31,110 nt of DNA from Candidatus Parcubacteria bacterium (GCA_019658985.1 JAIFWS010000001.1:1-31110), one strand, 5' to 3'. Positions 8,911-28,599 are shown, counted from the first letter of the stretch. Notes: generated by a model not told the origin, from the letters alone. Program-made: numbers and translations.

Positions 8911-8940
8911 AATAAAAAATCCCTTCTTTACAAAGGGATT
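8911..8940 (-). terminator. Intrinsic terminator of array 1
   Basis: Minus strand AATCCCTT-TGTAAAG-AAGGGATT-TTTTATT, 15 nt beyond the last repeat. Confidence 0.75.
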
Positions 8941-8954
8941 ATTGAAGCCTTAAC

Positions 8955-10586
8955 GACGGACTACTCCGCCCCTCGGTTCAAGATGAGGCGCTATGCACCA
9001 CCATGCCGGACGTTGTAATAATGACGGAATACTCCGCCCATCGCGCAGACTAACTAAAGAGCGGGACACCTGAGCAAACTAAACCGAAGGTAGGCAGATT
9101 AATGGCGGATAACTCCGCCCATCGCATCGTGACGCGATACTAGACGATACCGTGCGGAAGCATGAGTATCCTTAAAGACGGCGCACGCCGTCGGACAGCG
9201 GGACACACCGACAGCGGAGAGAGTCGTACAAAACCTAGCTCAGCTCTGTTGTCATGGCGGCATACACCACCCACGACTAGGCAAAAGAGCGCTTTACCAG
9301 ACATTGCCACACGACACGAAAGCTCATCGACAGCGGAGTACTCCGCTCATCCACTATACTGGCACTAGGACTGGCTTCACCTCACAAGACCGTGACTTCA
9401 TAGCGGAATACTCCGCTCGCTCACTATACCGGCGCTAGAACTGACTTTACCTCGCAAGGCCATAACTACTCCGCCAGGCGCCAGGCAACAGTAGGCTCGA
9501 CATTACGTGAGCAGACCACAGGATAACCATTCCCTTGACGGTTTACACCGCCCCGGAACTAGCATTACCTCACTCCGCCTAGCTTAGCTCGACGGATGCA
9601 CAGGAGAATTCATGGCAGAGTACTCTGCCGGGCGTGAAGCGCGGGAGAAGATTGCGGCACCGTGACAGACTTAACCAAGATTTATGGCGGAGTACTCCGC
9701 CCAATACCTGACCAAGCCCGATCTTGCTAGACCTGGCCTTGCCAAATAATAGCGGCGTACGCCGCCCGTAACTTAGAGACGCGTGAGGTCGCAAAGCGAC
9801 AGTTGACTACACGGGACGATACCGCAGCCAATGCATGGCGGAATACTCCGCCCCGAACAAGAACATAGCGGATCGCAGTAAACCATGCCGATTCACAGCT
9901 TGCTCTTGCTTTCATGGCGGCGTACGCCGCCCTTCAAACTAAGTTACCATGAGCTAGGGTACCTTGCCTAATCGCGGCGGATTACTCCGCCCGGCAAAAC
10001 TAACGTGCAGTTGGCTACTCCACGTTACAAGAATACCACGACGGCATACGCCGCCAGAAAAGATACCTGGCTTGACTCCGCGCCACTAAACCTAACCTAA
10101 TCATGACGGAATACTCCGCCCGATACTGTGGCTTAACCCACTGCACCATAATGAGGTAAACCCCATTAATGGCGGAGTACTCCGCCCGACAATCACAATG
10201 TACGGTTGACTGCCATGTGTCGCCAGATAGGTAACGACGGAATACTCCGCCGCGCATGTCGGGTTACGCCACGATACGTTGGCGCACACCGCCTTGAATT
10301 GCATAACGGAATACTCCGCTCAGAAGCCGGGTAGACTCCGCCTTAGGAAGCTTAGCTCCACCCCACCAAATATAACGACGACATACGCCGCCGTGCATGC
10401 AGCACTAAGCTGGATCACACGCCATCGGACCTTGCCATTAACGGCGGATCACTCCACCCGCTAGCTAGCTCCAAGCTACTGCGCGTTGCCTAACTAAATA
10501 TCGACAGCGGATTACTCCGCTCTTCACTGAACAAACACGCAACTAAGACGTAGCCCGCAACGGGCCGCCTTAAGTTATAGCACTTG
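8955..10586 (-). CRISPR. Array 1: non-canonical CRISPR-like hairpin-repeat array with 5-nt-periodic spacers (22 full repeats plus 1 half)
   Basis: 16-nt cores (+ strand consensus G(G/A)CGGA-NTA-CTCCGCC) at 8955, 9023, 9104, 9177, 9256, 9332, 9402, (half 9468), 9537, 9614, 9686, 9751, 9837, 9916, 9976, 10040, 10105, 10171, 10236, 10305, 10377, 10443 and 10506. Spacers are distinct, with a periodic first unit to ~10586. Promoter and terminator give minus-strand orientation. Confidence 0.85.
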
Positions 10587-10598
10587 CATATTCCAAAT

Positions 10599-10627
10599 AA
10601 TATAACTTAAGGCGATTTCTTAATCAA
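10599..10627 (-). promoter_or_regulatory. Sigma70-like promoter of array 1
   Basis: Minus strand TTGATT (10627-10622), 17 nt, TATATT (10604-10599), overlapped by inverted repeats. Confidence 0.65.
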
Positions 10628-10638
10628 ATAAGAAATCT

Positions 10639-10678
10639 AATAAAAATCACGGAGCCGAAGACATTGCTGTACTTCGGC
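10639..10678 (-). terminator. Intrinsic terminator of the DinG gene
   Basis: Minus strand GCCGAAG-TACAGCAATGT-CTTCGGC then TCCGTGATTTTTATT. Confidence 0.65.
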
Positions 10679-10707
10679 GCCGCGATCATTTGTCTACCCA
10701 GGCCTGC

Positions 10708-12648
10708 TCAGTCGACGAGCAGATCCTCGGCCTCCCCGAGACACTCTTCCAGATCCCGGTCGCCGATGTAGACGCCGTGGGCCTGCAACTCCGGCGGCAG
10801 GTTGTGGAAAACGAGTTCCCGGAACCCTTCGGACATCAGCAGAGACACACCCTTGCAATCCTTGCTTCGGATGTTACGGCCGAGAGCCTGGAGAGTCTGC
10901 AGGACAACGCGCGCCCTCGTCCGAACCCAAGCCCCCTTTCCATAGCGCTGTTGTTCGAATTGCGCAACCGCACTCTCCGGATCGGGATACCCCGGGCGCA
11001 GGAGCCACAGCGCACCAGCTAGACCGTCCGGCAAATCCAAGCCCGTGCCGTAGTGCGCCATGCACCCGATCAGCACTTGGCCCTGCCCGTCCTTGAAGAG
11101 TCGCGCGGCCTCCTTAGCCGGCATGTGACCGTTATAGGTCACGACTTCCAGACCCGCTTGTTCACAGAACGCGATACACTGTTCACGTTCTTTGTTCGAC
11201 ACCAGGAGCACGAGGCTACGGATGTCTTGCTCAGCCAGGCGTGCGCAGCCATTGGCGATGGCTCGCAACGTTCTCCGTTTTTTCTTCCCTGACATGTCCT
11301 GCTTGCGCGAGAGATCGTCCACGTCGCAAGGCACCATGATGCGACGGTTGGTCGCCGGGAATGGCGACGGAGCCGAGTGCATCTGCAGGCGCAGACCCGT
11401 TTCGTAGCGGAAGTGGTCGGCGTTTTGGCCGATCGTGGCCGAGAAGCAGAGGGTGGTGGGAGGAGCCAGCCTCTTGATGATCAGGCCAGCCACGTAATGG
11501 CAGTGGAGCCTGAGCAGATACTCGACTCTTTCCCTTCCCTTCTTGATCTGGAAGAACGAACAGGTGTAGTTGAGCGGCCGACGGATGACTTCGTCGTCAT
11601 CGTTCTTCACCGGGATGCCAAACCTCATCGTATGGCCATATCGCCGGAGATCCCGCGTCAGGCGTTCCAGATCCCTGACAGCACGGAAGTCGGTTGGCAT
11701 TTTGAGATGCCCCGCCTCGATCGCTGCCCGTCTTCTCTCGCCCTCAATGATACCGGGTTCGATTTCATCGAGGATTTCTAGTAGCTTCTCAATCTGGTCA
11801 CCCTCGAGCAGATACTCCCGATCGGGTTGCCGATCCTCGCTGTGGGCAATCTCATTCATTGCTTCCAAGAAACGCCTCAGGATCGGCGCTTCCGGTGCGT
11901 GAATGCGTTCGAGAAGGGCGATCGCCTGGCTGACGTGGTAGTTACTGATCGTGTAACTCAACGTGTAGCGGATGACATCCGGCCACTGGTGAGCTTCGTC
12001 AACGATCAGCACTGGCACGCGGCCGTAGGCGGTCTGATACACGTCGCCATCCTGCTTGTTGCCAAACAGCATGATGTACGTGTAGGCGGACATGGTCATG
12101 ACGACGATGCCGCCACCTTTCTTGGCTTCGTAGGTCTGTTGGTAGTACGGACAAGGAACCGCGGACGGATCCTTGACTTGGCCGGTCTTCTGATCAACGT
12201 AGTGCGGACAGTTCTTGTGGAACATGTACGGCACTTCGTCAACGCGCGGCACATCCGGATTGGCGGCCAGCACGGGCAACTCGTGCCGCTGGACCGGGTT
12301 TTTCGGCTCTTCCTCGAAGCCCTCGTGGGCCCAAGGACAGACGTGGTCATGTTGACCGAAGACCACCCGCACATCGGGATGCTCTTCCTTGATCTGCGCG
12401 ACCACTGCCCGGGACGGCGCGATCCACACAACCGTCTCGCCCGGTTCCAGTTTGCTCAGGGCATACGAGGCGGCAGCATATTCCAGCGCCGTCTTGCCCG
12501 TCCCCGTTGGAAGCTGCTGAAGCCACTTCCCCTCCGCCAACGCCCGCATCGCATCCCGTTGAATGGGACGCGGAACAGTGATTTTGTCGGTGAGGGGGAA
12601 ATGGGACAATAGCCCCGGCGTGTCGAACTTCAATCTGTCCGTCGGCAT
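10708..12648 (-). CDS. DinG/XPD-family SF2 helicase (array-embedded)
   Basis: Q motif RPIQ, motif I PTGTGKT, motif II VDEAH, motif III FSAT, motif V GTGLDLP, motif VI QALGRNIRSKDCKG. Cys motifs CPW, CPHY and CPYY lie in the Fe-S region. SD GGAGGAG. Confidence 0.93.
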   Translation of the reverse strand: MPTDRLKFDTPGLLSHFPLTDKITVPRPIQRDAMRALAEGKWLQQLPTGTGKTALEYAAASYALSKLEPGETVVWIAPSRAVVAQIKEEHPDVRVVFGQHDHVCPWAHEGFEEEPKNPVQRHELPVLAANPDVPRVDEVPYMFHKNCPHYVDQKTGQVKDPSAVPCPYYQQTYEAKKGGGIVVMTMSAYTYIMLFGNKQDGDVYQTAYGRVPVLIVDEAHQWPDVIRYTLSYTISNYHVSQAIALLERIHAPEAPILRRFLEAMNEIAHSEDRQPDREYLLEGDQIEKLLEILDEIEPGIIEGERRRAAIEAGHLKMPTDFRAVRDLERLTRDLRRYGHTMRFGIPVKNDDDEVIRRPLNYTCSFFQIKKGRERVEYLLRLHCHYVAGLIIKRLAPPTTLCFSATIGQNADHFRYETGLRLQMHSAPSPFPATNRRIMVPCDVDDLSRKQDMSGKKKRRTLRAIANGCARLAEQDIRSLVLLVSNKEREQCIAFCEQAGLEVVTYNGHMPAKEAARLFKDGQGQVLIGCMAHYGTGLDLPDGLAGALWLLRPGYPDPESAVAQFEQQRYGKGAWVRTRARVVLQTLQALGRNIRSKDCKGVSLLMSEGFRELVFHNLPPELQAHGVYIGDRDLEECLGEAEDLLVD

Positions 12649-12766
12649 ACACTCCTCCCGCTAATAGAGTGGTTGGCTGTCTCCGTTGATTCGAGGATGT
12701 CCGTGCTAATTATCAAAGGTCTTCATCGCTGGACTCGCCCTAGGGCAGGTCTAACGAAGCGCGCTT

Positions 12767-12795
12767 AATTTAACATCAAAAATATCCTTTGTCAA
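12767..12795 (-). promoter_or_regulatory. Sigma70 promoter of the DinG gene
   Basis: Minus strand TTGACA (12795-12790), 17 nt, TAAATT (12772-12767). Confidence 0.65.
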
Positions 12796-12832
12796 TTGAT
12801 TATTATTGTTATAAAAATCCCTGTTTTATACA

Positions 12833-12860
12833 AACAAAAAGACAGCCTGTAAGAGCTGTC
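12833..12860 (-). terminator. Intrinsic terminator of array 2a
   Basis: Minus strand GACAGC-TCTTACAG-GCTGTC-TTTTTGTTT. Confidence 0.75.
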
Positions 12861-12870
12861 TAGAATCAAT

Positions 12871-13779
12871 GACGGAATACTCCGCCCTAAGTGCGGGTGC
12901 GACTTTCCAGGCCGTAGAGGAGGCCGCGGCGACTAACTCTGCCCGATAATAACGGTGTACACCGTCCACAGCGGCAAGGCGCGCTAGCGGGATTCACGAA
13001 ACTCTGCGCTGAGTAATAGCGGATTACTCCGCCCAAAAGGACGTGGCGTGATACGATAAGGGACCACACCCTGGCAAGCCCAATCGATGGCGGAATACTC
13101 CGCCCGATACACTAACTTGGCACGCCCTACTTAACCCAACCTTGGCAAAGATCCATGGCAGAATACTCTGCCGACTGCTCCAGGCCGCTTTGGCGGACCA
13201 GACGCCACGATGCTTTACCCCGGTCTCATCAGCATGACGATCTACATCGCCGCTAACCCGAGTTCTAAGCTGGTTGACGTTACTCTACCGAGCCTCAATC
13301 ATGGCGGCTACGCCGCCCGGCACCAAGGGTTGCCGTACGGCACTTAACTGCACGTAGTATTCATGGCGGAATACTCCACCGGGCAAGTAGACGTGGAAGA
13401 TATTACGACACCGTACGTCAAATCATGGCGGTCGACGCCGCCCGGTACTCGATCCTGCGTTAGCTGACATTGCTCTGGCATGAATATTGGCGAACTACTT
13501 CGCCGGATAGCGCTGAGTAGGAAATCCTGGAGTACTACACGTTACAGCACGCCACGACGTCTAACGACGGAATACTCCGCCCCTAAACCTACTAAGAAGG
13601 AGGGAGCTACGCCATACTAGGTAACGGCGACGTACATCGCCCGAGAGGTGGCTCAGCAATGCCTTAAGATGCTTTACTCAACCCCAAGAATCATGACGGA
13701 CTACTCCGTCCGCAAGTGTACTTAATCCTGGTGGACTAAACCGTAGCTAAGGGAAATGTCAAAGAACCTATCCAATGAA
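12871..13779 (-). CRISPR. Array 2a: same non-canonical hairpin/pentamer array (13 repeats)
   Basis: Cores at 12871, 12951, 13018, 13089, 13157, 13236, 13303, 13365, 13427, 13489, 13566, 13626 and 13695. The first unit (13715-13779) is also periodic. Confidence 0.85.
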
Positions 13780-13784
13780 TTCCC

Positions 13785-13813
13785 AATGTAACACAAAACC
13801 TCCTACAAATCAA
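13785..13813 (-). promoter_or_regulatory. Sigma70-like promoter of array 2a
   Basis: Minus strand TTGATT (13813-13808), 17 nt, TACATT (13790-13785). Same -35 hexamer as the array 1 promoter. Confidence 0.65.
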
Positions 13814-13820
13814 TTTCGCC

Positions 13821-13854
13821 AAAATAAAAAAGGACAGCGTTTGACGACTGTCCT
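13821..13854 (-). terminator. Intrinsic terminator of array 2b
   Basis: Minus strand AGGACAG-TCGTCAAACG-CTGTCCT-TTTTTATTTT. Confidence 0.75.
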
Positions 13855-13867
13855 ATGAACTTGTAAT

Positions 13868-14712
13868 AGCGGCTATGCCGCCCTTTGAGATAAGCTGCTT
13901 TAGTTTACCCAGCTGCATCATACCCAATAATGACGGATTACTCCGCCCGTAACGCCGAACCGTCCTACCTGACGCTACTCAAGAGAAATGACTAATGACG
14001 GATTACTCCGCCCATCGAAGAGCAGGATACGACAGCTGGCAGAACCCCACCATACGTTATCAATGACGGATTACTCCGCCCTGCACCGGGACTAATTACG
14101 CAGCACGATACGCCACGATGGCACTTGCCTAACAGCGGCGTACGCCGCCCAAGACCGGACACGAGGCTTGCTTAACTGTAGTAAGCTTTACCTAACCGCA
14201 GCAGGTCGATGACGGTCTACGCCGCCGGTAAGGTAAGTCGGTGGTGGTGCGCGAAGCTTCACTAGCGCGCAACCTGACTCAACTTTATCATAACAGCGGA
14301 CTACTCCGCCCTCTACAATGGCTTACTTACGATGAGGTGAACTACGCTTTACTAAAACTTCATGGCGGACTACTCCGCCCAAAGATGTGCGCAACAGCGA
14401 CACGCTCGGGCTCGCTGCGCCATGGTAAATTCATCGATGGCGGACTACTCCGCCCGAAAACTTGCTGAGGGCGGGTGCGCCTAACTCAACACAACACCAC
14501 CGAATCGTTGGCGAAATACTCCGCCGGACAAGCTGGTATTCCGCGATTTACTGCACGGAACGTTGCAGAGCTTGAGCACCGTAATGGCGGACTACTCCGC
14601 CCCGTACGAATAACTACTGAATGGAACTATGCCCTGGCTAAAACCATGACGGTTTACACCGCCCGGTAACCTGCAACGGAGAAGTCAACTCTACGTAACC
14701 AAGCCGAATCAT
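13868..14712 (-). CRISPR. Array 2b: same non-canonical hairpin/pentamer array (12 repeats)
   Basis: Cores at 13868, 13932, 13997, 14065, 14134, 14211, 14295, 14364, 14439, 14510, 14586 and 14648, with periodic sequence continuing to ~14712. Confidence 0.85.
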
Positions 14713-14717
14713 CAGGC

Positions 14718-14766
14718 AAAAAAAATCGCAGAACCAGCACACATTCCTGTGTGTCCGGCCCTGCGA
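14718..14766 (-). terminator. Long hairpin plus U8 (terminator or attenuator) between the CSD-protein gene and array 2b
   Basis: Minus strand TCGCAG-GGCCGG-A-CACAC-AGGAAT-GTGTG-CTGGTT-CTGCGA-TTTTTTTT, about 17 bp including G.U pairs. Confidence 0.65.
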
Positions 14767-14806
14767 CCCTAACGACGGTTGAACCCGCCTTTTGTTCGCC
14801 GAAACA

Positions 14807-15733
14807 TCACGACACCGGCTCGACCCCGAAGGCATCGAGCGTGTACTTGGGCTTGCGGCCCGGACGGTATTCGGTCTTGGGGTTGCGTTGAGCCTTGGCC
14901 AGGTTCGAGAACCTGACCCGTTGACCTTGGCCCAGGTAGCGCAGCCGGGGGCTCGGCGGCGCCTCCGTCCAGTGCACCCGCGCCCAGCCCTGAGCGGTGA
15001 CGATCTTGCCCATGTTGCGGGCATCGTGCCAGCTCTCCACCATCCCTTCGTTGCGCCGGAGCCCGTCGATACTCGGCTCAGGCGGAAAGAGGGTGTCGGG
15101 GGCGGGAATCAGCGGCAGTCCCTCGGGAGCGAGATTCACCAGAACCGTTCCCAGGTGCTTGTGTTTGCCGACGCCCGGAAAACAGAGTCTGCCCTTGTAC
15201 CCGGAACAGGCCAGCAGGTCCTGTCGGCGCTGCACCGTCAGGAAGAACTGCCTACCCTGGCTGATGACGGCCACCTCCCACACGTGCACATGGCCGGTCA
15301 GCCTTCCTGCCAGCCGCACGTACTGGCCGAGGCACAGCGTGTTAGCCGGATAGGAGGTCTTGTTGAGGAGAGGACCATCGTAGGCGAAGAGATCCAGGCC
15401 GAAGCGGGATCCGAAGACGACGCCCTCGGAGTCCTTGTCGCGACTCGACAAGAAATCGAAGCGCCGCTTCTGCTTGGCGTGGGCCTCTTCGTAGCCCTCC
15501 TCATTCAATTGGGGGATGTCATCCGGGTCACGGTTCCAGTCCTTCTGGGGCAGGAAGTTATCATCTCCCGTCCGGAAGAACGCGACCGTCCAGTCGGCGT
15601 CGTCGGCCACCTCGGCCAGGATCGTCACCGATCCGGAAGCCAAGTCTCCGACGTAGCCGTCTGCTTCGGGCGCCACGAGGTCTTTTTCGTGATAGACCTC
15701 CACAGCAACGCCCGGGATCTGGTAAACGCTCAT
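14807..15733 (-). CDS. Hypothetical protein with a C-terminal cold-shock-like (OB-fold) domain
   Basis: Residues ~229-308 (EGMVESWHDARNMGKIVTAQGWARVHW...YLGQGQRVRF) align by eye with CspA (GxVKWFNxxKGFGFI...VFVHF...LxEGQxVxF). SD AAGGA. The N-terminal 220 aa are not recognised. Confidence 0.7.
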   Translation of the reverse strand: MSVYQIPGVAVEVYHEKDLVAPEADGYVGDLASGSVTILAEVADDADWTVAFFRTGDDNFLPQKDWNRDPDDIPQLNEEGYEEAHAKQKRRFDFLSSRDKDSEGVVFGSRFGLDLFAYDGPLLNKTSYPANTLCLGQYVRLAGRLTGHVHVWEVAVISQGRQFFLTVQRRQDLLACSGYKGRLCFPGVGKHKHLGTVLVNLAPEGLPLIPAPDTLFPPEPSIDGLRRNEGMVESWHDARNMGKIVTAQGWARVHWTEAPPSPRLRYLGQGQRVRFSNLAKAQRNPKTEYRPGRKPKYTLDAFGVEPVS

Positions 15734-15825
15734 TGGCGAAACCGTCCTTTCTTTTCAAGGTGCACTTATTGCCCGCCGACATAGCGAGCTTCAGATAGAT
15801 TGCTCCTATCATATAAATTATCACT

Positions 15826-15869
15826 TGTCAATTAATTGCGTTGACAGACGGAACATAGTATGTTAGCCT
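15826..15869. promoter_or_regulatory. Back-to-back divergent promoters for the CSD-protein and Cas7-like genes
   Basis: Plus strand TTGACA (15841-15846), 17 nt, TAGCCT (15864-15869) with an extended TG. Minus strand TTGACA (15831-15826) has only a weak -10. Confidence 0.55.
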
Positions 15870-15941
15870 CAAAACCAGTTTCAGGATGAATGTCTGGCGA
15901 CGCCAGCGAATCCTGAATAGCACCTAGCACCGGGAGAACCT

Positions 15942-16877
15942 ATGTCCGAGCCTGCTGTGTTGGAACTGCCGGCGCTCGACGAGAGCGCTATCGCCACCAT
16001 GTACGAAAGCCCCATCATGACCACGCGTCGGGTGGCGGTGTTCAAGTTCTGCCTCAAGGGCCGCAAGCCCTTGCTCTGCGACCGCATGAGTGGGGGGGCG
16101 TTGGACTCCATCTTCACGGGCCAGAAGCTGGAGATCGCGCCCGACATGCGGATCGAGGAGCGGGCCTGGATGAAGGCCTATGGGCGCAGCTACGAAAAGG
16201 ACGTACCGGTCGGCCCCGCCGTCATCCCCGTCGAGAACCTCTCGGCGGCCCTGGTCGCCGCCGGCTGCGCGATCCAGTACGGCAGCGGCAAAACGGAGAA
16301 GGTCACCTTCTCCACGAAGAACACTTCGTTCTTCGGCATGATCGAGTTCCGCGACGAGCACTTCACCATCTTCGGCCCGGACGGGAAACCGGCCGAGTGG
16401 GTGGTGGACAAGCGGCGCGGCGCGGCCAACAACAACAATGGCAGCGCGGTCTGCATCGTCCGCCCCAAGTGGCCGCGATGGTGCATCGCCGGCTACCTGG
16501 ACCTAAACCTGGACTCCGGCCTCAGTCCCGACAAGGCGCTGGACCTCTTCACCGAGGCGGGCAAGAACCACGGCCTGTGCAGCGCCAGGCCGGGCAACAA
16601 AATGACGTTCGGCATGTACGACGTCACCACGTTCGAGTGGGTGGGGGGCGTGGACCCCAAAACCATCACCGTCAGCGTGGGCAGCAGCACGACGGCGGCC
16701 AAGCCCAAGCGCGCCACCAGCCGCAAAAAGAAGGTTGCCGACGAAGCGCCCGCGCCGGACGCCACTTCGGAGACGCCGGCGGACGCGACGCTCGACGGCC
16801 AAGCCGCGGCCGAGACGCTGGGGCCCGGCACGCCGTTGGGCAACGGCGAAGCGCCCGCCGCCGAAACCCCGCAGTAA
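15942..16877 (+). CDS. Cas7-like RAMP-superfamily protein (candidate guide-binding backbone subunit)
   Basis: RAMP-like motifs: FKFCLKGRKPLL (beta1), AVIPVENLSAALVAAG (cf. Csm3/Cmr4 xIPGSSLKG), VVDKRR...IVRPKWPRW (thumb region) and AGKNHGLCSARPGNKMTFGMYDV (G-rich loop, cf. GLGxxRxxGxGxF). ~70-aa low-complexity tail. SD GGAG. Confidence 0.72.
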   Translation: MSEPAVLELPALDESAIATMYESPIMTTRRVAVFKFCLKGRKPLLCDRMSGGALDSIFTGQKLEIAPDMRIEERAWMKAYGRSYEKDVPVGPAVIPVENLSAALVAAGCAIQYGSGKTEKVTFSTKNTSFFGMIEFRDEHFTIFGPDGKPAEWVVDKRRGAANNNNGSAVCIVRPKWPRWCIAGYLDLNLDSGLSPDKALDLFTEAGKNHGLCSARPGNKMTFGMYDVTTFEWVGGVDPKTITVSVGSSTTAAKPKRATSRKKKVADEAPAPDATSETPADATLDGQAAAETLGPGTPLGNGEAPAAETPQ

Positions 16878-16902
16878 CAACTGATGGGACCAACAACGCA
16901 AT

Positions 16903-16940
16903 GCCGCCAAGAGATTCTATCTCCTGGCGGCTCTTTATTT
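16903..16940 (+). terminator. Terminator after the Cas7-like gene
   Basis: GCCGCCA-AGAGAT-TCT-ATCTC-C-TGGCGGC followed by TCTTTATTT. Confidence 0.7.
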
Positions 16941-23944: not shown

Positions 23945-25234
23945 TTACAGCTGGCGGCCTAAAAGACTACACACCCATTCCAGTATCTTTTCCGGCCACG
24001 GCCGTTTCCGCCAGAGATCCAAATTAATTTCTTTGCATTTTTCCAGGTCCATATTAAATTCCTTCCGCATTTTCAAACCGAAAGATTCGCTCAAAACACA
24101 TAATACATTCTCTTCATTTAATTCCTCGGACCGCACATCCATATTGGCCGATCCTAAAATAGACCAGCAATCGTCGGCCAGGAAATTTTTGGAATGGATC
24201 ATCGTCGGCTGGTATTCGTAAATTTTCACGCCCGCCGAAAGAAGCCGGTCGTAGTAATATCTTCCGGCGTAGTAAACTAATTTTTCATCATTATTAATAT
24301 TGGGGACTATCAAGACAACATCCACCCCCTCCTGCGCTTTTTGGATGAAGACTTGGCGTATGTACTTACTCGGAAAAAAATAAGAATTCTGGATGTAAAT
24401 GCCCTTTTGCGCCGCCATGCACGAAAGCCAGAGCACATTGCGCAGGAGATTTGTTTCCAGCACCGGCGAACTGGTAAGGCTGATCCATTTTGATTCCGTG
24501 GTTTCTTCCTCGATCGGCGGATACACCCCTTCGCCGGTAAGGATTTCACCGCAGGCATTAGTCCATAAGGTATTAAACACCCGTTGGATCGCACGCGCCT
24601 GGGTGCCGGTTACCCGGAACATTACATCGCGCCAATGCTTTTTGTCTTGGGCGTCTCCCGTCCACTCCTGGCCGATGGCAGAGCCGCCGGTGTATCCGAA
24701 TTTTCCGTCAATGATAAAAGCCCGGCAGTGGTTGCGGCGGTGATAGCGGGTCAGGATGCCAAACCGCAATGGGCGGAACCACACTATTTTTATACCGCCC
24801 TCCTCAAGCTGGAGCTGGTTTGCTTTGTAGAATGTATTGGATCCGGTGCTGTCCAACAGGAGCCGGACTTCAATTCCCTCCTGGGCTTTACGTAAAAGAG
24901 CGCTCAATATCTGCTGGCCGATCGGGTCATGCGGCCGCAAAATGAAAACGGTGATATGGATTGTTTTTTTGGCGTTCTCAATATCATTCAAAAGTGCCGG
25001 GAAAAATCCGTCCCCGTTATTGAGTATTTGCGGCAATCCGCCATGTTCAAACGTAGTACGGCTAGTAGCTTCCAAAGCCCGTAAAAAACTCTCATCTTTG
25101 AAACTGACCCGCCCCCGCAGGTTGAATTTCTCCGGGCCGCGTCCCAGTGAAGTGAAAAAAGATAAAAACCAAAAACCAAACCCGAGAATTCCGGATATCA
25201 ACAAGAATATTTCCACTACCGGCAGGATCATCAT
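23945..25234 (-). CDS. Cardiolipin synthase-like phospholipase D protein
   Basis: N-terminal TM, RNHCRAFIIDG...GG (variant HKD1), WRDVMFRVTG and HSKNFLADD...GSANMD (HKD2). Confidence 0.9.
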   Translation of the reverse strand: MMILPVVEIFLLISGILGFGFWFLSFFTSLGRGPEKFNLRGRVSFKDESFLRALEATSRTTFEHGGLPQILNNGDGFFPALLNDIENAKKTIHITVFILRPHDPIGQQILSALLRKAQEGIEVRLLLDSTGSNTFYKANQLQLEEGGIKIVWFRPLRFGILTRYHRRNHCRAFIIDGKFGYTGGSAIGQEWTGDAQDKKHWRDVMFRVTGTQARAIQRVFNTLWTNACGEILTGEGVYPPIEEETTESKWISLTSSPVLETNLLRNVLWLSCMAAQKGIYIQNSYFFPSKYIRQVFIQKAQEGVDVVLIVPNINNDEKLVYYAGRYYYDRLLSAGVKIYEYQPTMIHSKNFLADDCWSILGSANMDVRSEELNEENVLCVLSESFGLKMRKEFNMDLEKCKEINLDLWRKRPWPEKILEWVCSLLGRQL

Positions 25235-25370
25235 GCGATAAGTTTAACTCTTTTTCATGAAATAATCATGAAAGCTCGTTGCAATCGGCGGAAAAATTCA
25301 CCAAGATCCTCAACGCGGATTCGAAAAAATAAAGGATGCTAACCCTTTGTCGCCTACGTCGCTCAGAAGT

Positions 25371-25407
25371 AAAAAAGGCCCGCGGCTGGTCGAAACCAGC
25401 CGCGGGC
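25371..25407 (-). terminator. Intrinsic terminator after the 159-aa ORF
   Basis: Perfect 13-bp stem GCCCGCGGCTGGT / ACCAGCCGCGGGC with a 4-nt loop (UUCG on the minus strand) and a U-tract. Confidence 0.85.
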
Positions 25408-25412
25408 TTGCA

Positions 25413-25892
25413 CTACCGCCATTGCTCCGGCGGCAAGAGCCAAAAATCGGGGTGGAGCGATATCGAACAGTGGGGATGGCTATCACCGATAGCCCGGAGA
25501 ACTTCAATGGTTCCTTCGAGCCACCGCGGGTCGCACGACACCAAATCCTGTGCATCCAGGCAGACCAGCGCCCTCTTCCCATCCAGGAGGAGGGCAACCA
25601 CTTCGGAGGTGCACTCTCCCCACCACCTGGTATTCACCCCGGTGAGCTGGCGCTCGATCGAGGTGATTCCCCCGCCTTCGGGAACGAACATGTATAACTG
25701 CATGCCGACAGAAACCATCGTGCCGCGGTGAAGCTTCTCACCCACCGCGAATTCACTTTTTCCGTCCTTGGCGATCTTCTGCAGATACGGATCTCCAGTT
25801 CCCGTGTAGGTGATTTGTACCACGTACACAGAACGGGAAACCGTCACGGCGTAGAATCGCTCAAGAACATCATCCAGCCTTTCGGCTTTCAT
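25413..25892 (-). CDS. Hypothetical protein (GC-rich, stand-alone)
   Basis: 159 aa, SD AAGGAGG, own TTGATA-16-TAGTAT promoter candidate and terminator. Confidence 0.75.
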   Translation of the reverse strand: MKAERLDDVLERFYAVTVSRSVYVVQITYTGTGDPYLQKIAKDGKSEFAVGEKLHRGTMVSVGMQLYMFVPEGGGITSIERQLTGVNTRWWGECTSEVVALLLDGKRALVCLDAQDLVSCDPRWLEGTIEVLRAIGDSHPHCSISLHPDFWLLPPEQWR

Positions 25893-25997
25893 CAGGACCT
25901 CCTTCCCAACAAGAGACTGATTTCACTACTACAATACTATCCAATTTCCAAGAATTATCAAATTTTAAATTAAAAAATGAAGTTATAAATAAAATGA

Positions 25998-26023
25998 GCC
26001 CGTCCTGACGCGTCAGGACGGGC
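25998..26023. terminator. Perfect 26-bp palindrome (probable terminator)
   Basis: GCCCGTCCTGACG|CGTCAGGACGGGC, followed on the minus strand by TCATTTTATTT. Confidence 0.7.
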
Positions 26024-26362
26024 CCTGCTCCGCTTCAGCCGCGGCGAGCGTGTCTTCGAAGACGAAGGTGGTGACCACCGCCCACGAGCTGTCGAAGTTT
26101 TCGTACTTCCATCGACGGGTGAACCCAGCTTGAGGAACAATCGGGCCAAATCCTCGTGACAGGAACGTTGCGAACCTACCCAGAGTCTCTTGGCGCGCAT
26201 GTCCATGAAAGACCGCTCGATGGCATCGGCCGCCTCTTGGACCGATCCGAAGTACTCGGTGTCTTCCAGATCCTTATTGGCCCGGCCGATCTGGCAGGCC
26301 ACCACATTCCTGCCGACCAACTGCTGGTTCATCGTAACGTCGGGAAACGCCGGGAATCCCAT
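26013..26362 (-). pseudogene. Hypothetical gene with a probable single-base frameshift near 26195
   Basis: SD AAGGAGG at the start. After ...MDMRA a second frame reads QETLGRFATFLSRGFGPIVPQAGFTRRWKYENFDSSWAVVTTFVFEDTLAAAEAEQGPS*, ending at a terminator palindrome. Confidence 0.5.
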
Positions 26363-26494
26363 ACCCCCTCCTTCTTCTCAGGGACGCGACTAGAGCAAGC
26401 CGTCGCTTAGCTTGCGTTAGTAATATTCTTTTTTACGATTACTGTCAAATAAAAACCTCGCCAAGAATACTCCGGGCGAGGCATCCGAAGTGCC

Positions 26495-26845
26495 TCATTT
26501 TTTAGCCTGCTCGCGCTCGACATAGTCGATCGCTTCGCCGACCGTCTTGATCTGCTCGGCCTGGTCATCGGGGATCGTGATCTCGAACTGCTCCTCCAGT
26601 TCCATCACGAGCTCCACGATGTCCAGCGAGTCGGCGCCGATGTCCTCAACGAACGCGGTCTGGCGGGTAACCTGTTCCTTATTCACCCCCAGGTTTTCAC
26701 AGACGATGTCGATCACACGCTCCTCGACCGAGGAACTGGTCACGGGCTGCGCCACGCCGGCCGTCTCGGGCACGACCCTGGGGACGATCTCGATTTCGGC
26801 CTTGGGCTCGGGCTCTTTCGGCGAACCGTAGCTCTTCCTGGCCAT
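26495..26845 (-). CDS. acpP: Acyl carrier protein with a ~38-aa N-terminal extension
   Basis: [41 protein letters not shown] (phosphopantetheine Ser in DSL). Own TTGACA-16-TAATAT promoter, SD and terminator. Confidence 0.93.
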
Positions 26846-26920
26846 CTCTTCTCTCCCTTGGGTTCGGGCGATGGGCTTCTGCTAATCTCATATTAATTCT
26901 TTCCATTGTTCTGTCAAACA

Positions 26921-26949
26921 AAAAACCACCCGTGTCCCGGGTGGTTTTT
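26921..26949. terminator. Bidirectional intrinsic terminator after the MFS gene
   Basis: AAAAACCACCCG-TGTCC-CGGGTGGTTTTT. Confidence 0.8.
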
Positions 26950-26961
26950 AAAATATCTGAT

Positions 26962-28599
26962 TTAGTGGGCGGAAGCAATTGATTTACCGACTTCTACATC
27001 TTTTGAATTAGGCAATAAGAAAGAAAGCGCCAAACCGAACACGACGAACATCGCCGCAAAAAGAAGCATCTCACGGTTACCGTCTACGGTTGCCTGGTTG
27101 CCCAGGGACGTGATTTCGTTGGTAATAGCAGGGGGAATATTTTGGCTTGATAACGACGAAGTTCCGGAAAATTCAATATTAGAAGATTGCTGGTTTACAT
27201 TCTGCACGATAACGGGTTTTAATGGTTCGGGGATTACCGAGCTGGCCTGAATGCCGCTGATCAGATGAGAAGATAGAACTGAAAGTAAAACGGCTCCCAA
27301 GATAGCCGCCCCGAGTGTCGCGCCCAATTGCCGCATCGTCGTATTAACCCCGGAAGCCTCACCGGATTCCTGGACTGAAACCGCAGAAAGGGCCATATTG
27401 GTGGTTTGCGAGAATAAAAATCCTGATCCGATTCCGAATAAGATAAATCCGGGAGCGAGCGCCCATTGGCTGGACACAATGCTTATCTCGGAGCGTAATA
27501 ATAAAAATCCGACAATATTAATAAGGAAGCCAAGCTGGATAAGATGTTTAGGCCTGACATACTTGCTGATGTAAGCTGAAAAAGGCGCGGCAAATAATAG
27601 TGAAAGTGTCATCGGCAAGAGGGCGTAACCGGTATGTAGCGCGTCCAGATGCTTTACTCCTTGCAAAAATACTGGCATGGCAAAGAAGATCCCTGTCTGG
27701 ACTAATGCCAATACTGCGGTAACCGAAGCAGCAACGGTGAATTGTTTATTTTTAAAAAGGGCCAGTGATACCAGTGGCGTTTTACCGCTTTTTTGCATCC
27801 CCATTTCCCATAAGATAAATAATTCCAATAAGAATATTCCCGCCGCCAGGAAATACGGCACTACAGTATATCCGGCCGGCATAATCGTTTGCCCAAATAC
27901 AATAAAGGCTTTGGTAGAAAAGAACCAGCCATAGGTTGAGGATTCAATCAATCCGAACACAATAGAAAGCAACCCGAGCGCTGACAAGGTAATACCCACA
28001 AAATCAATTGTTATTTTTTCTTCAGTATCACGCGCTTCTTTTATAAGATAGGCACCCAGCACAAGAATAAGCGCTACTCCCACATTCAACCGGAAGGCCC
28101 AGCGCCAAGAATAATAGGTGGTAAGCCATCCTCCGAAGATAGGACCGAAGGCAGCGGAGGCTGCCGCAATCCCTCCCCAGATCCCAAAAGCAAGCTGGCG
28201 GTCGCGGCCCTGATAATTGGAAACTAATAATGAGGTGGTAGCCGGCAGCATCAGGCACGCGCCAATCCCCTCAATAATAGCCTCGCCTACAACCATGATG
28301 CCCACGCTATTACTTATGGAAGCGATGAAAGATCCGACGGCGAAAATAATAGCTCCCAAAATAAACATCCGTTTGCGTCCAAAAAAGTCGCCGAAACGCC
28401 CTCCGGTAATCGTAAAGGCAGCCAGCATAAGGGAGTAGGCCGTAATTACCCATTGGATACTCAGCACATCGGTATGCAGGTCTGTGATAATATTCTTCAA
28501 TGAAACATTGAGGATCGTCGTATCGAGCACGATGATGGTCAGGGCGAAACTCAGCACGATAAGCGGAGCCCATTTTCTTAAAGCTTCTGATAGTTTCAT
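26962..28599 (-). CDS. DHA2 (EmrB/QacA-type, 14-TMS) MFS transporter
   Basis: LDTTILNVSL, WVITAYSL, GGRFGDFFGRKRMF (motif A), GPIFGGWL...SWRWAFRLNV and MRQLGATLGAAILG. Confidence 0.92.
   Translation of the reverse strand: MKLSEALRKWAPLIVLSFALTIIVLDTTILNVSLKNIITDLHTDVLSIQWVITAYSLMLAAFTITGGRFGDFFGRKRMFILGAIIFAVGSFIASISNSVGIMVVGEAIIEGIGACLMLPATTSLLVSNYQGRDRQLAFGIWGGIAAASAAFGPIFGGWLTTYYSWRWAFRLNVGVALILVLGAYLIKEARDTEEKITIDFVGITLSALGLLSIVFGLIESSTYGWFFSTKAFIVFGQTIMPAGYTVVPYFLAAGIFLLELFILWEMGMQKSGKTPLVSLALFKNKQFTVAASVTAVLALVQTGIFFAMPVFLQGVKHLDALHTGYALLPMTLSLLFAAPFSAYISKYVRPKHLIQLGFLINIVGFLLLRSEISIVSSQWALAPGFILFGIGSGFLFSQTTNMALSAVSVQESGEASGVNTTMRQLGATLGAAILGAVLLSVLSSHLISGIQASSVIPEPLKPVIVQNVNQQSSNIEFSGTSSLSSQNIPPAITNEITSLGNQATVDGNREMLLFAAMFVVFGLALSFLLPNSKDVEVGKSIASAH

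What the first reader, a model, noticed from the sequence alone, without database searches (positions are those of the whole stretch)
8911..16940. Candidate new RNA-guided system: orphan Cas7-like RAMP + DinG helicase + CSD protein + three pentamer-coded hairpin arrays
Seen: 47 full short hairpin repeats in three separately terminated arrays, separated by distinct 5-nt-periodic spacers. They surround a DinG/XPD helicase and sit next to a Cas7-like gene and a CSD-domain gene. No cas1/2/5/6/8, Nop-domain protein, RT or integrase is present. Established: Cas7 RAMPs polymerise along guide RNAs with a fixed nucleotide step, and type IV-A CRISPR pairs a nuclease-less Cas7 complex with a DinG helicase for transcriptional interference. 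From memory, and not verifiable here, recently reported VIPR systems pair a Cas7-like protein with RNAs of alternating GGY/NN motifs. Inference: this is a minimal VIPR-like RNA-guided DNA-binding system in a CPR-type chromosome. It has a relaxed NGY/NN code, ~48 guides and a recruited DinG effector, an architecture I do not recognise as described.
Basis: partly seen in the sequence, partly recalled or inferred. Interest (0 to 1): 0.97.

Follow-up and report, generated by a model that had tools for sequence, protein, structure and literature searches.

The report
Helicase-linked VIPR system with 47 guides
This 8-kb island in a tiny (CPR-sized) bacterial chromosome is a VIPR system, a CRISPR-like RNA-guided DNA-recognition system first described in 2026 preprints. 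It has 47 guide-RNA units, a DinG-type helicase and an extra cold-shock-domain protein, so it is a rich new example of a known kind rather than a new kind.

Summary
There are 47 covarying hairpin repeats in three minus-strand arrays. The spacers between them carry a strong 5-nt periodicity (z = 11). The arrays sit around a DinG/XPD-type helicase and next to a Cas7-fold gene and a CSD-containing gene.

The 311-aa protein is a true Vipr homologue. A profile of its family hits the solved SUSP1 Vipr chain (PDB 36pp) at E = 6e-12 over nearly its full length. Its model matches only Csm3/Cas7 RAMPs.

Each RNA unit is an AU-rich leader, 8-13 pentamers [G>N]-Y-N-N-N, and a 6-bp hairpin as 3' handle. 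This is the published vrRNA layout, with the published relaxed "YNNNG"/"WGT-NN" type of repeat.

New here: in 21 guides orthologous with a relative whose Vipr is 84-85% identical, the two bases after Y change three times less often than the other three positions (p = 1e-7). This is evolutionary support for the NN code in this clade.

Helicase-linked VIPRs are already mentioned in the preprints, and this scan has met them in at least 13 other Patescibacteria genomes. The claim of an undescribed architecture therefore fails.

Possibly new details are the conserved 308-aa CSD accessory, polycistronic hairpin-delimited arrays of 32-72 units, and the helicase's best match to a type IV-A "CasDinG" profile. 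Targets, expression and the helicase's role remain untested.

The parts
15942..16877 (+). vipr gene: 311-aa Vipr (Cas7-like RAMP). The folded core is about residues 30-238, preceded by an N-terminal helix and followed by a disordered basic/Ala-Pro-rich C-terminal tail.
   Evidence: GC3 is 0.91. The family has 289 clusters at 50% identity. The family profile hits PDB 36pp_D 'SUSP1 Vipr protein' at E = 6.2e-12, profile positions 15-204 against chain residues 4-191. The AF2 model has pLDDT 85.8. The top 50 Foldseek PDB hits are all Csm3/Cmr4/type VII Cas7/gRAMP.
14807..15733 (-). Second accessory gene: a 308-aa protein with a C-terminal cold-shock/S1-type OB domain (residues about 226-308). The N-terminal beta-rich part is unassigned.
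   Evidence: GC3 is 0.81. There is no Pfam, PHROG, NCBIfam or PADLOC hit. Homologues at 41-48% identity sit in other CPR contigs between a roughly 300-aa Vipr and long arrays plus a helicase. VIA-align gives Z 8.4 and rmsd 1.9 over 64 residues to M. tuberculosis CspB. Foldseek AFDB hits are CSD proteins.
10708..12648 (-). Helicase accessory gene (vap): a 646-aa SF2 DinG/XPD-type helicase with Walker A (GTGKT), DEAH, Helicase_C_2 and a Cys/His cluster (H102, C104, C147, H149, C166 invariant).
   Evidence: Pfam DEAD, Helicase_C_2 and ResIII. PADLOC typeIV_DinG PDLC01439 at E = 9.7e-37 over residues 26-619. NCBIfam DinG, YoaA and Csf4 match only weakly. The alignment with helicases of five other Vipr loci is at 37-88% identity. 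The family co-localises with Vipr in 9 of 9 genomes.
8955..10521 (-). vrRNA array 1: 22 hairpin-tailed units. The first guide extends upstream (RNA sense) to about 10590.
12871..13710 (-). vrRNA array 2: 13 units. The first guide extends to about 13785.
13868..14663 (-). vrRNA array 3: 12 units. The first guide extends to about 14715. This array lies directly downstream of the CSD-protein gene and has no recognisable promoter of its own.
10599..10627 (-). Promoter-like site of array 1 (TTGATT-17-TATATT).
13785..13813 (-). Promoter-like site of array 2 (TTGATT-17-TACATT).
   Evidence: Read by eye. It has the same -35 hexamer as array 1.
8918..8940 (-). Intrinsic terminator closing array 1.
12840..12861 (-). 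Intrinsic terminator closing array 2.
13831..13854 (-). Intrinsic terminator closing array 3.
14715..14790 (-). A degenerate 48th hairpin right after the stop codon of the CSD gene, then a long hairpin plus T8 between that gene and array 3.
   Evidence: Sequence read.

Best explanation
The island is a chromosomal, helicase-linked VIPR (Viral Interference Programmable Repeat) system.

Three minus-strand transcription units encode 47 vrRNAs. Each vrRNA has an AU-rich 5' leader and 8-13 pentamers of the form [G>N]-Y-N-N-N. It ends in a G and a 6-bp hairpin with a GUAN loop, which serves as the constant 3' handle.

By homology with SUSP1 Vipr, one Vipr protomer binds each pentamer. The filament flips out the x-G-Y bases and presents the two bases after Y for gapped pairing with double-stranded DNA, most likely with one skipped target base per repeat.

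The DinG/XPD-type helicase is the dedicated effector or accessory that acts on the bound target. By analogy with CasDinG it would unwind or clear DNA from the R-loop and so block transcription or replication. The 308-aa CSD protein is a second, clade-specific accessory that binds single-stranded nucleic acid. Its role is unknown; it may help read through, process or load the long polycistronic arrays.

The biological role is most likely interference with phages or other mobile elements of this CPR bacterium.

Shown here: Vipr homology and fold, the RNA architecture and its strand, gene linkage, and purifying selection on the NN positions.

Inferred: filament assembly, the skip rule, the roles of the helicase and CSD protein, and the defence function.
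For: Vipr homology: the family profile hits the solved SUSP1 Vipr at E = 6.2e-12 over nearly its full length, including the thumb R-P (SUSP1 R138-P139 = window R174-P175, invariant) and the G-loop.

RAMP fold: pLDDT 85.8, and the Foldseek top 50 are all Cas7-group proteins.

vrRNA layout: period 5 with z = 11.4. Y is kept at 80-96% in repeats 1-9 counted from the hairpin, and G at 24-72%. The repeat tract precedes a covarying 3' hairpin, and only the minus strand pairs, through G.U pairs. Minus-strand terminators close each array.

Code: across 21 guides orthologous with relative L001, substitution rates per pentamer position are G 0.243, Y 0.249, N3 0.095, N4 0.079 and N5 0.238 (chi-square p = 1.4e-7). 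The dinucleotide after Y is therefore selectively constrained, while the three scaffold positions drift within their class.

G-loop residues fit the relaxed motif. SUSP1 D177 and H17, which contact G1, are S214 and D47 here, and W178, which stacks on G2, is A215. R179 (Y3 pocket) and R138 (G2 salt bridge) are kept as R216 and R174 (with residue roles from bioRxiv 10.64898/2026.04.26.720927).

Linkage: distant relatives in a Pacebacteria genome and a Pacearchaeota genome have Vipr, pentamer RNAs with hairpin tails, and a helicase. In the phylum sample, 9 of 9 Vipr-positive genomes have the helicase within 8 kb. The CSD partner is conserved in the roughly 300-aa Vipr clade.

The published description of VIPR covers helicase accessories and YNNNG-type repeats.
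Against: No expression data exist: no RNA run holds the locus.

No target was found. The own genome gave nothing above shuffled controls under any skip rule. Seven viral, two metagenome and one genome-collection pattern scans gave nothing above chance. The 1-nt skip rule is therefore untested for this clade.

The canonical GGY motif is not present; only Y is strongly kept.

Array 3 has no recognisable promoter.

The type number (probably IV) could not be checked, because the paper's figures and tables are not held as text.

The Vipr-CSD complex prediction gave no verdict.
Confidence: 0.88

Rival explanations
1. A degenerate or minimal type IV-like CRISPR locus: an orphan CRISPR array with CasDinG and a lone Csf2-like Cas7, using ordinary contiguous spacers.
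For: Repeat-spacer arrays with a period of about 65-70 nt would be called CRISPR by array finders. The helicase's best profile is PADLOC typeIV_DinG at 1e-36. The protein has a Cas7 fold.
Against: The spacers carry a hairpin-phased 5-nt code, with only 2 of 5 positions under selection. CRISPR spacers do not show this. No Csf1, Csf3 (Cas5), Cas6 or Cas1/2 is present. The RAMP family hits SUSP1 Vipr by sequence and no Cas7 family in Pfam or NCBIfam. The repeat is only 16-22 nt long.
Confidence: 0.03
2. A domesticated VIPR used for regulation of the host's own genes, that is, programmable transcriptional repression of chromosomal targets rather than defence.
For: The location is chromosomal, between housekeeping genes, with the same synteny in a relative. 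Characterised VIPRs act by transcriptional silencing. There are no mobility genes.
Against: No guide matches the 697-kb own genome better than shuffled guides under any of 16 rule-and-skip combinations. About half of the guides have no orthologue in a relative whose Vipr is 84-85% identical, which suits an arms race better than regulation. The family is patchy: 9 of 400 other genomes in the phylum sample.
Confidence: 0.06
3. The hairpin arrays are selfish or structural repeats (REP/MITE-like, or terminator arrays) that are functionally unrelated to the neighbouring genes.
For: Short GC-rich hairpins are common intergenic repeats.
Against: The repeats occur nowhere else in the window. The same gene-plus-array combination recurs at 32-48% protein identity in distant CPR and DPANN genomes, with different hairpin sequences but the same pentamer code. 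Compensatory stem changes and strand-specific G.U pairs are present. Selection is position-specific within the spacers.
Confidence: 0.02

Closest known systems
VIPR systems (Vipr + vrRNA + vap), bioRxiv 10.64898/2026.04.26.720920. The characterised type II examples are Escherichia phage SUSP1 and a Pseudomonas fulva prophage. Structures are in 10.64898/2026.04.26.720927 (PDB 36pp).
   Same: The Vipr protein is homologous over its full length. The guide is a pentamer-repeat RNA with a structured constant 3' tail and 8-13 repeats (published range 9-16). Two of every five bases carry specificity. The locus is minimal, with no adaptation genes.
   Different: The motif is x-G-Y/NN (G 24-72%, Y 80-96%) instead of GGY/NN, with matching changes in the G-loop residues that read G1 and G2. 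The tail is a simple 6-bp hairpin, not a pseudoknot. There are 47 guides in three polycistronic arrays rather than 1-4. It lies in a chromosome, not a phage. The accessories are a DinG-type helicase and a CSD protein, not a small DNA-binding Vap1.
Helicase-associated VIPR types (types III-V are said to encode nucleases or helicases; type IV by elimination) and the non-canonical YNNNG / WGT-NN repeat variants (10.64898/2026.04.26.720920; 10.64898/2026.10.21.760802).
   Same: Vipr plus a predicted helicase. The pentamer consensus is relaxed, with one degenerate scaffold position. It occurs in a prokaryotic chromosome.
   Different: The assignment could not be verified, because figures and tables are not held. 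Neither text mentions a CSD-domain accessory or hairpin-delimited arrays of tens of units. No member of this type has been tested experimentally.
Type IV-A CRISPR-Cas (Csf complex + CasDinG/Csf4)
   Same: A nuclease-free Cas7-type RNA-guided filament is paired with a DinG-family helicase. The helicase's best profile match is PADLOC typeIV_DinG (E = 1e-36).
   Different: There is no Csf1, Csf3 or Cas6. Guides are not contiguous spacers. Repeats are 16-22 nt long. NCBIfam cas_csf4 matches only at 7.7e-5, far below its cut-off.
Type III Csm3 / Cmr4 Cas7 subunits
   Same: The RRM core, thumb and G-loop fold is shared: Foldseek E = 3e-6, with the top 50 hits all of this group.
   Different: Sequence identity is 7-15%. 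The step is 5 nt instead of 6 nt. There is a single RRM. No Cas10, Cas5 or Cas11 partners are present.

Membership tests
VIPR system | A Vipr protein: a minimal RAMP (single RRM core, thumb, G-loop) homologous to the described Vipr. | tested here: met
   A profile of 104 family members hits the SUSP1 Vipr chain 36pp_D at E = 6.2e-12, profile positions 15-204 of 252 against chain residues 4-191 of 202. The AF2 model has pLDDT 85.8 and only Cas7-group structural hits.
VIPR system | vrRNA made of at least 4 tandem pentamers with the canonical GGY/NN (YNNGG) consensus. | tested here: not met
   The first G is not conserved and the second is at 24-72%. Only Y is kept, at 80-96%.
VIPR system | vrRNA with a related consensus accepted by the authors (NNNGG, YNNNG, NNNNG; also WGT/NN, TGH/NN). 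| tested here: met
   The RNA-sense pentamer is [G>N]-Y-N-N-N, which equals YNNNG when read in register. Period-5 power has z = 11.4, with 8-13 repeats per unit.
VIPR system | The repeat tract is followed by a constant, structured 3' tail. | tested here: met
   The pentamer phase is locked to the downstream (RNA-sense) hairpin in 35 of 43 units. The hairpin is 99.3% paired, with compensatory changes in 5 of 6 pairs.
VIPR system | The NN dinucleotides carry target specificity. | tested here: met
   This is an indirect, evolutionary test. In 21 orthologous guides, the two bases after Y change at 0.08-0.095 per site, against 0.24-0.25 at the other three positions (p = 1.4e-7).
VIPR system | Gapped target recognition with one skipped target base per repeat. 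| tested here: inconclusive
   No significant protospacer was found in the own genome, the viral, metagenome or genome collections, or related loci.
VIPR system | vrRNAs are expressed and co-purify with Vipr. | not testable with these tools
   No RNA sequencing run holds the locus.
VIPR system | A minimal locus of vipr plus accessory (vap) gene(s), with no cas adaptation or processing genes. | tested here: met
   The island has only three protein genes. No cas, integrase or RT domains were found in the window.
Type IV-A CRISPR-Cas | A Csf1/Csf2/Csf3 effector complex with Cas6-type processing and a CRISPR array of contiguous spacers. | tested here: not met
   No such genes are present. The spacers are pentamer-coded.
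Type IV-A CRISPR-Cas | A CasDinG (Csf4) helicase. | tested here: inconclusive
   PADLOC typeIV_DinG PDLC01439 matches at 9.7e-37 over the full length. NCBIfam cas_csf4 scores 21 bits against a cut-off of 400. No phylogeny was made.
DinG/XPD (Rad3) SF2 helicases | Walker A, DEAH box, the Helicase_C_2 C-terminal domain and a 4-Cys Fe-S cluster domain. | tested here: inconclusive
   Walker A (GTGKT), DEAH and Helicase_C_2 are present. Only three Cys (C104, C147, C166) plus H102 and H149 are invariant. The fourth Cys seen in the short-Vipr relatives is Y, H or Q in this clade. There is no hit to any solved chain by sequence.
Cold-shock domain / S1 OB fold | A five-stranded OB barrel of the CSD type. 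| tested here: met
   Residues 226-308 give Z 8.4 and rmsd 1.9 A over 64 residues at 22% identity to CspB, followed by Unr and Lin28 CSDs. AFDB hits are named CSD proteins. Pfam CSD is not reached by sequence.

The most novel reading that the evidence does not exclude
This clade may be a distinct VIPR sub-architecture with three features. First, dozens of guides (32-72 per locus) are made from long polycistronic, hairpin-delimited arrays. Second, a previously unlisted CSD/OB-fold accessory protein enables read-through, processing or loading of these arrays, or binds the displaced DNA strand. Third, its DinG-type helicase shares recent ancestry with type IV-A CasDinG. That would give a direct evolutionary bridge between VIPR and a CRISPR type, and a natural system in which a gapped-code filament recruits a motor enzyme.
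Probability: 0.2. Interest if true: 0.7.

Novelty: new member of a known kind. Interest (0 to 1): 0.4.

Why it matters
VIPR is only months old as a concept, and only phage-borne type II systems have been tested. This locus is one of the richest natural guide repertoires available for the untested helicase-linked form. It offers 47 guides here and at least 72 in a close relative.

The pair of genomes gives an evolutionary readout of the code. Only the two bases after the pyrimidine are under purifying selection. The protein's G-loop substitutions predict which scaffold bases became free.

This makes concrete experiments possible. One is to work out what the DinG helicase and the CSD protein add to a nuclease-free, gapped-code DNA binder. 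Another is to ask how long arrays are processed without Cas6. A third is to ask how guides turn over without Cas1/2.

It also matters for annotation. Array finders and defence-system profiles will tend to label such loci as orphan CRISPR arrays with type IV-A DinG.

Tried and rejected
1. Self-targeting. All 47 guides were scanned against the 697-kb own genome under four choices of paired positions and 0-3 skipped bases. The best matches equalled those of shuffled guides.

2. Viral protospacers under the N3N4 + 1-skip rule.
- Two 20-base patterns and one 18-base pattern gave no hit.
- Guide 13695 (18 bases) hit four homologous contigs of an abundant 16-kb siphovirus family, whose capsid resembles those of Arthrobacter, Curtobacterium and Gordonia phages.
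- That match extends to 23 of 26 positions, but the skipped base falls on codon position 1.
- No other guide converges on 82 related contigs, which include apparently complete genomes of about 16 kb.
- Another 18-base pattern gave seven hits on contigs of diverse GC content and sequence, so hits of this size are at chance level. A further 18-base pattern gave one hit, with no second guide on it.
- I reject the candidate as unsupported.

3. Patterns of 24 and 22 bases in the metagenome collection, and a 24-base pattern in the genome collection, gave no hit.

4. Cross-targeting of other VIPR loci gave nothing above the null.

5. Expression. No RNA run holds the locus; only small shares appear in soil metagenome DNA contigs.

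6. Vipr + CSD protein complex prediction gave no verdict (score 0.00). It is evidence neither for nor against binding.

7. The single Vipr sequence against PDB sequences gave nothing; only the family profile reaches SUSP1 Vipr.

8. The N-terminal 215 residues of the CSD protein gave only sub-threshold S1/CSD-like leads in the protein atlas.

9. Rfam families and tRNAs: none in the window, so there are no ribozyme-interspersed arrays.

10. The paper's supplementary tables, needed for a type assignment, are not held.

Full report
**What is in the sequence**

The region 8,950-16,900 is a GC-rich island (0.52-0.64) flanked by DNA of 0.42-0.48 GC.

A fuzzy search and then a position-weight scan found a 16-nt hairpin repeat only inside 8,955-14,663 and only in one orientation. 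On the plus strand it reads GRCGGAnTACTCCGCC, preceded by AT and followed by C.

With two copies that have a 3-nt loop, there are 47 copies:
- 22 in array 1 (8,955-10,521)
- 13 in array 2 (12,871-13,710)
- 12 in array 3 (13,868-14,663)

There are also two remnants (about 9,467-9,490 and 14,771-14,790).

I aligned 45 of the copies on the minus strand and counted the 6-bp stem:
- It is paired in 99.3% of cells.
- Five of the six pairs show changes on both sides.
- It contains 28 G.U/U.G pairs, which would be A-C mismatches on the plus strand.
- No shuffle out of 500 reaches the observed pairing or covariation.

The repeat is therefore a structured RNA read from the minus strand. Terminator-like hairpins with T-runs on the minus strand close each array at its low-coordinate end. 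A minus-strand promoter-like site precedes array 1. A second site with the same -35 hexamer precedes array 2. Array 3 follows the 308-aa gene and a long hairpin plus T8, without a promoter of its own.

**The spacers**

The 44-70-nt spacers have strong power at period 5 (z = 11.4) and at its harmonic 2.5 (z = 11.1). They have none at period 3.

Phase fitting gives NNN-R-C on the plus strand. The phase is locked to the plus-strand upstream hairpin in 35 of 43 spacers.

In RNA sense each unit reads as follows:
- an AU-rich leader
- 8-13 pentamers [G>N]-Y-N-N-N
- a G
- the hairpin

Y is kept at 80-96% in repeats 1-9 counted from the hairpin, and G at 24-72%. This is the layout of a vrRNA, in which a tandem repeat tract precedes a constant structured 3' tail (bioRxiv 10.64898/2026.04.26.720920).

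**The proteins**

The 311-aa ORF (15,942-16,877, plus strand) has no Pfam, NCBIfam or PADLOC hit. It belongs to a family of 289 clusters at 50% identity.

A profile of 104 members hits exactly one solved chain, 36pp_D "SUSP1 Vipr protein". The E-value is 6.2e-12, over profile positions 15-204 and chain residues 4-191 of 202. The single sequence alone does not reach it.

The AlphaFold model (pLDDT 85.8) has its top 50 Foldseek matches in the PDB all among Csm3, Cmr4, type VII Cas7 and gRAMP. It is a Vipr.

The alignment places these residues:

| SUSP1 residue | Role in the structure preprint | Window residue |
|---|---|---|
| R138-P139 (thumb) | R138: salt bridge to G2 | R174-P175 (invariant) |
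| D177 (G-loop) | reads G1 | S214 |
| W178 (G-loop) | stacks on G2 | A215 |
| R179 (G-loop) | holds Y3 | R216 |
| P180 (G-loop) | – | P217 |
| H17 | reads G1 | D47 |

The residues lost here are those for G1 and the G2 stack. The residues kept are those for Y3 and the G2 salt bridge. This fits a motif in which G1 is free, G2 is half-kept and Y is kept. It is an inference from an alignment, not a structure.

The 646-aa minus-strand ORF (10,708-12,648) is an SF2 helicase:
- Pfam finds DEAD, Helicase_C_2 and ResIII.
- It carries Walker A and DEAH motifs and an invariant H/C cluster.
- Its best profile by far is PADLOC typeIV_DinG PDLC01439, at 9.7e-37 over the full length.
- Curated DinG, YoaA and Csf4 models match only weakly.

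The 308-aa minus-strand ORF (14,807-15,733) has no family hit. Its model (pLDDT 74.7) ends in a cold-shock/S1 OB barrel: Z 8.4 and rmsd 1.9 A over 64 residues to CspB, with AFDB CSD proteins as further hits.

The rest of the window holds housekeeping genes (GyrB, PheS, GlmS, a P-type ATPase and others). No cas, integrase or RT domain was found. There is no Rfam family and no tRNA.

**Relatives**

A JGI contig (L001) encodes a Vipr 84-85% identical to this one, with the same synteny and at least 72 units: TrmB-like regulator, array, helicase, arrays, CSD protein, Vipr, YGGT.

Loci with CSD-protein homologues at 41-48% identity hold 55 or more and 32 or more hairpin-delimited (G-Y-N-N-N)n units and a 640-650-aa helicase. 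They come from a groundwater metagenome and another metagenome. One of them shows the adjacent roughly 300-aa Vipr.

More distant Viprs of about 200 aa (about 32% identity) also sit beside pentamer RNAs and a ResIII/Helicase_C_2 helicase. They occur in a Pacebacteria genome and a Pacearchaeota genome. In the Pacebacteria locus each pentamer RNA appears to have its own promoter, and in both loci each ends in a hairpin tail followed by a T-run.

In an even sample of 400 other genomes of the phylum:
- 9 carry the Vipr family.
- All 9 carry this helicase family on the same contig within 8 kb.
- 2 of the 9 carry the full-length CSD partner next to Vipr. Weaker CSD relatives also occur in genomes without Vipr.

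The own genome is 697 kb, 97.5% complete, and has one copy.

**A test of the code by evolution**

Between the window and L001, 21 guides are orthologous (at least 70% identical). Roughly half of the guides have no counterpart.

In the orthologous guides, substitutions per site by pentamer position are:

| G | Y | N3 | N4 | N5 |
|---|---|---|---|---|
| 0.243 | 0.249 | 0.095 | 0.079 | 0.238 |

The chi-square p-value is 1.4e-7. Changes at Y are almost all C/T.

So the two bases directly after Y are under purifying selection. The three scaffold positions drift within their class. These two bases correspond to N4 and N5 of the published G1-G2-Y3-N4-N5 unit. This is independent support that the NN code applies in this clade.

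Within the window all guides are distinct (mean pairwise identity 31%). The exception is one paralogous pair, units 9332 and 9402, which differ mostly at the pyrimidine position.

**What it is and how it probably works**

The locus is a helicase-linked VIPR system.

Shown here:
- Vipr homology and fold
- the vrRNA architecture and its strand
- the obligatory linkage to the helicase
- the selective constraint on NN

Inferred by homology with SUSP1:
- One protomer binds per pentamer.
- The filament flips out x-G-Y.
- It pairs with dsDNA in gapped fashion, probably with one skipped base.

Speculative:
- The helicase acts on the R-loop as CasDinG does in type IV-A.
- The CSD protein helps with read-through, processing or loading of long arrays, or binds the displaced strand.

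**Targets and expression**

I could not identify targets. Self-targeting is not supported. Ten pattern scans of public collections gave nothing beyond chance.

One 18/18 hit of guide 13695 to an abundant 16-kb siphovirus family extended to 23 of 26 positions. It stands alone among 47 guides. It has the skipped base at codon position 1. It is matched in kind by seven hits on unrelated-looking contigs for another guide.

No RNA data exist for the locus. The Vipr-CSD complex prediction gave no verdict.

**Comparison with what is known, and novelty**

The discovery preprint defines seven VIPR types. It says types III-V encode nucleases or helicases, and that III and V are the only types with nucleases. 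By elimination, type IV would be the helicase type. It also lists YNNNG among the alternative repeats.

A later preprint reports non-canonical WGT/NN and TGH/NN repeats. The scan's own notebook records helicase-linked VIPRs in at least 13 other genomes; the eight shown are Patescibacteria.

I file it as a new member of a known kind.

Three details are not mentioned in the texts I could read:
- the conserved CSD-domain accessory
- polycistronic hairpin-delimited arrays of 32-72 guides
- the helicase's affinity to a type IV-A DinG profile

The last point may also mean that such loci have been, or will be, annotated as CRISPR type IV-associated.

Noticed in passing
window 10708-12648: PADLOC's profile PDLC01439 ('typeIV_DinG; CAS-IV-A; associated') matches this VIPR helicase at 1e-36 over the full length, while curated DinG and Csf4 models barely match. 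Defence-annotation pipelines, together with CRISPR array finders, would probably mislabel such loci as orphan type IV-A.
   Followed up: partly
window 9332-9475: This is the only paralogous guide pair in the arrays (units 9332 and 9402, 77.5% identical over 40 nt). They differ mostly by C/T changes at the periodic pyrimidine position, which suggests growth by unit duplication. A half-repeat remnant follows at about 9467-9490.
   Followed up: partly
L012-L093 (IMG/VR contigs), e.g. L012:315-340: Guide 13695 matches 18 of 18 NN positions (23 of 26 when extended) in a 414-aa tail-region gene. The gene belongs to a very abundant 16-kb siphovirus family (597 related stretches) whose capsid-protease resembles Arthrobacter, Curtobacterium and Gordonia phages. 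By the control scans this is at chance level, but it is the only lead to a target.
   Followed up: yes
L005:1596-3369; G239:C1:9494-13908; G102:C89:5482-6957: Several related loci carry two Vipr paralogues side by side.
   Followed up: no
window 25001-27000: A second GC-rich patch (0.50-0.56) holds three ORFs of 130-159 aa (25336-25731 +, 25413-25892 -, 25970-26362 -) without any Pfam hit.
   Followed up: no
window 16660-16877 (Vipr residues about 240-311): The roughly 300-aa Vipr clade has a disordered C-terminal tail with a basic patch (KPKRATSRKKK) followed by an acidic/Ala-Pro-rich stretch. It also has an extra N-terminal helix. Both are absent from the roughly 200-aa Viprs. Their function is unknown.
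   Followed up: no
G117, G161, G162, G176, G348, G373: Proteins of about 290 aa related to the CSD accessory (E = 1e-9 to 1e-17, covering its central and C-terminal parts) occur in CPR genomes that lack Vipr. The accessory was probably recruited from a wider CPR protein family.
   Followed up: no
window vs L001: About half of the guides have no orthologue in a relative whose helicase DNA is 84% identical, and shared units are rearranged. Guide turnover is therefore fast, although no Cas1/2-like adaptation genes are present.
   Followed up: partly
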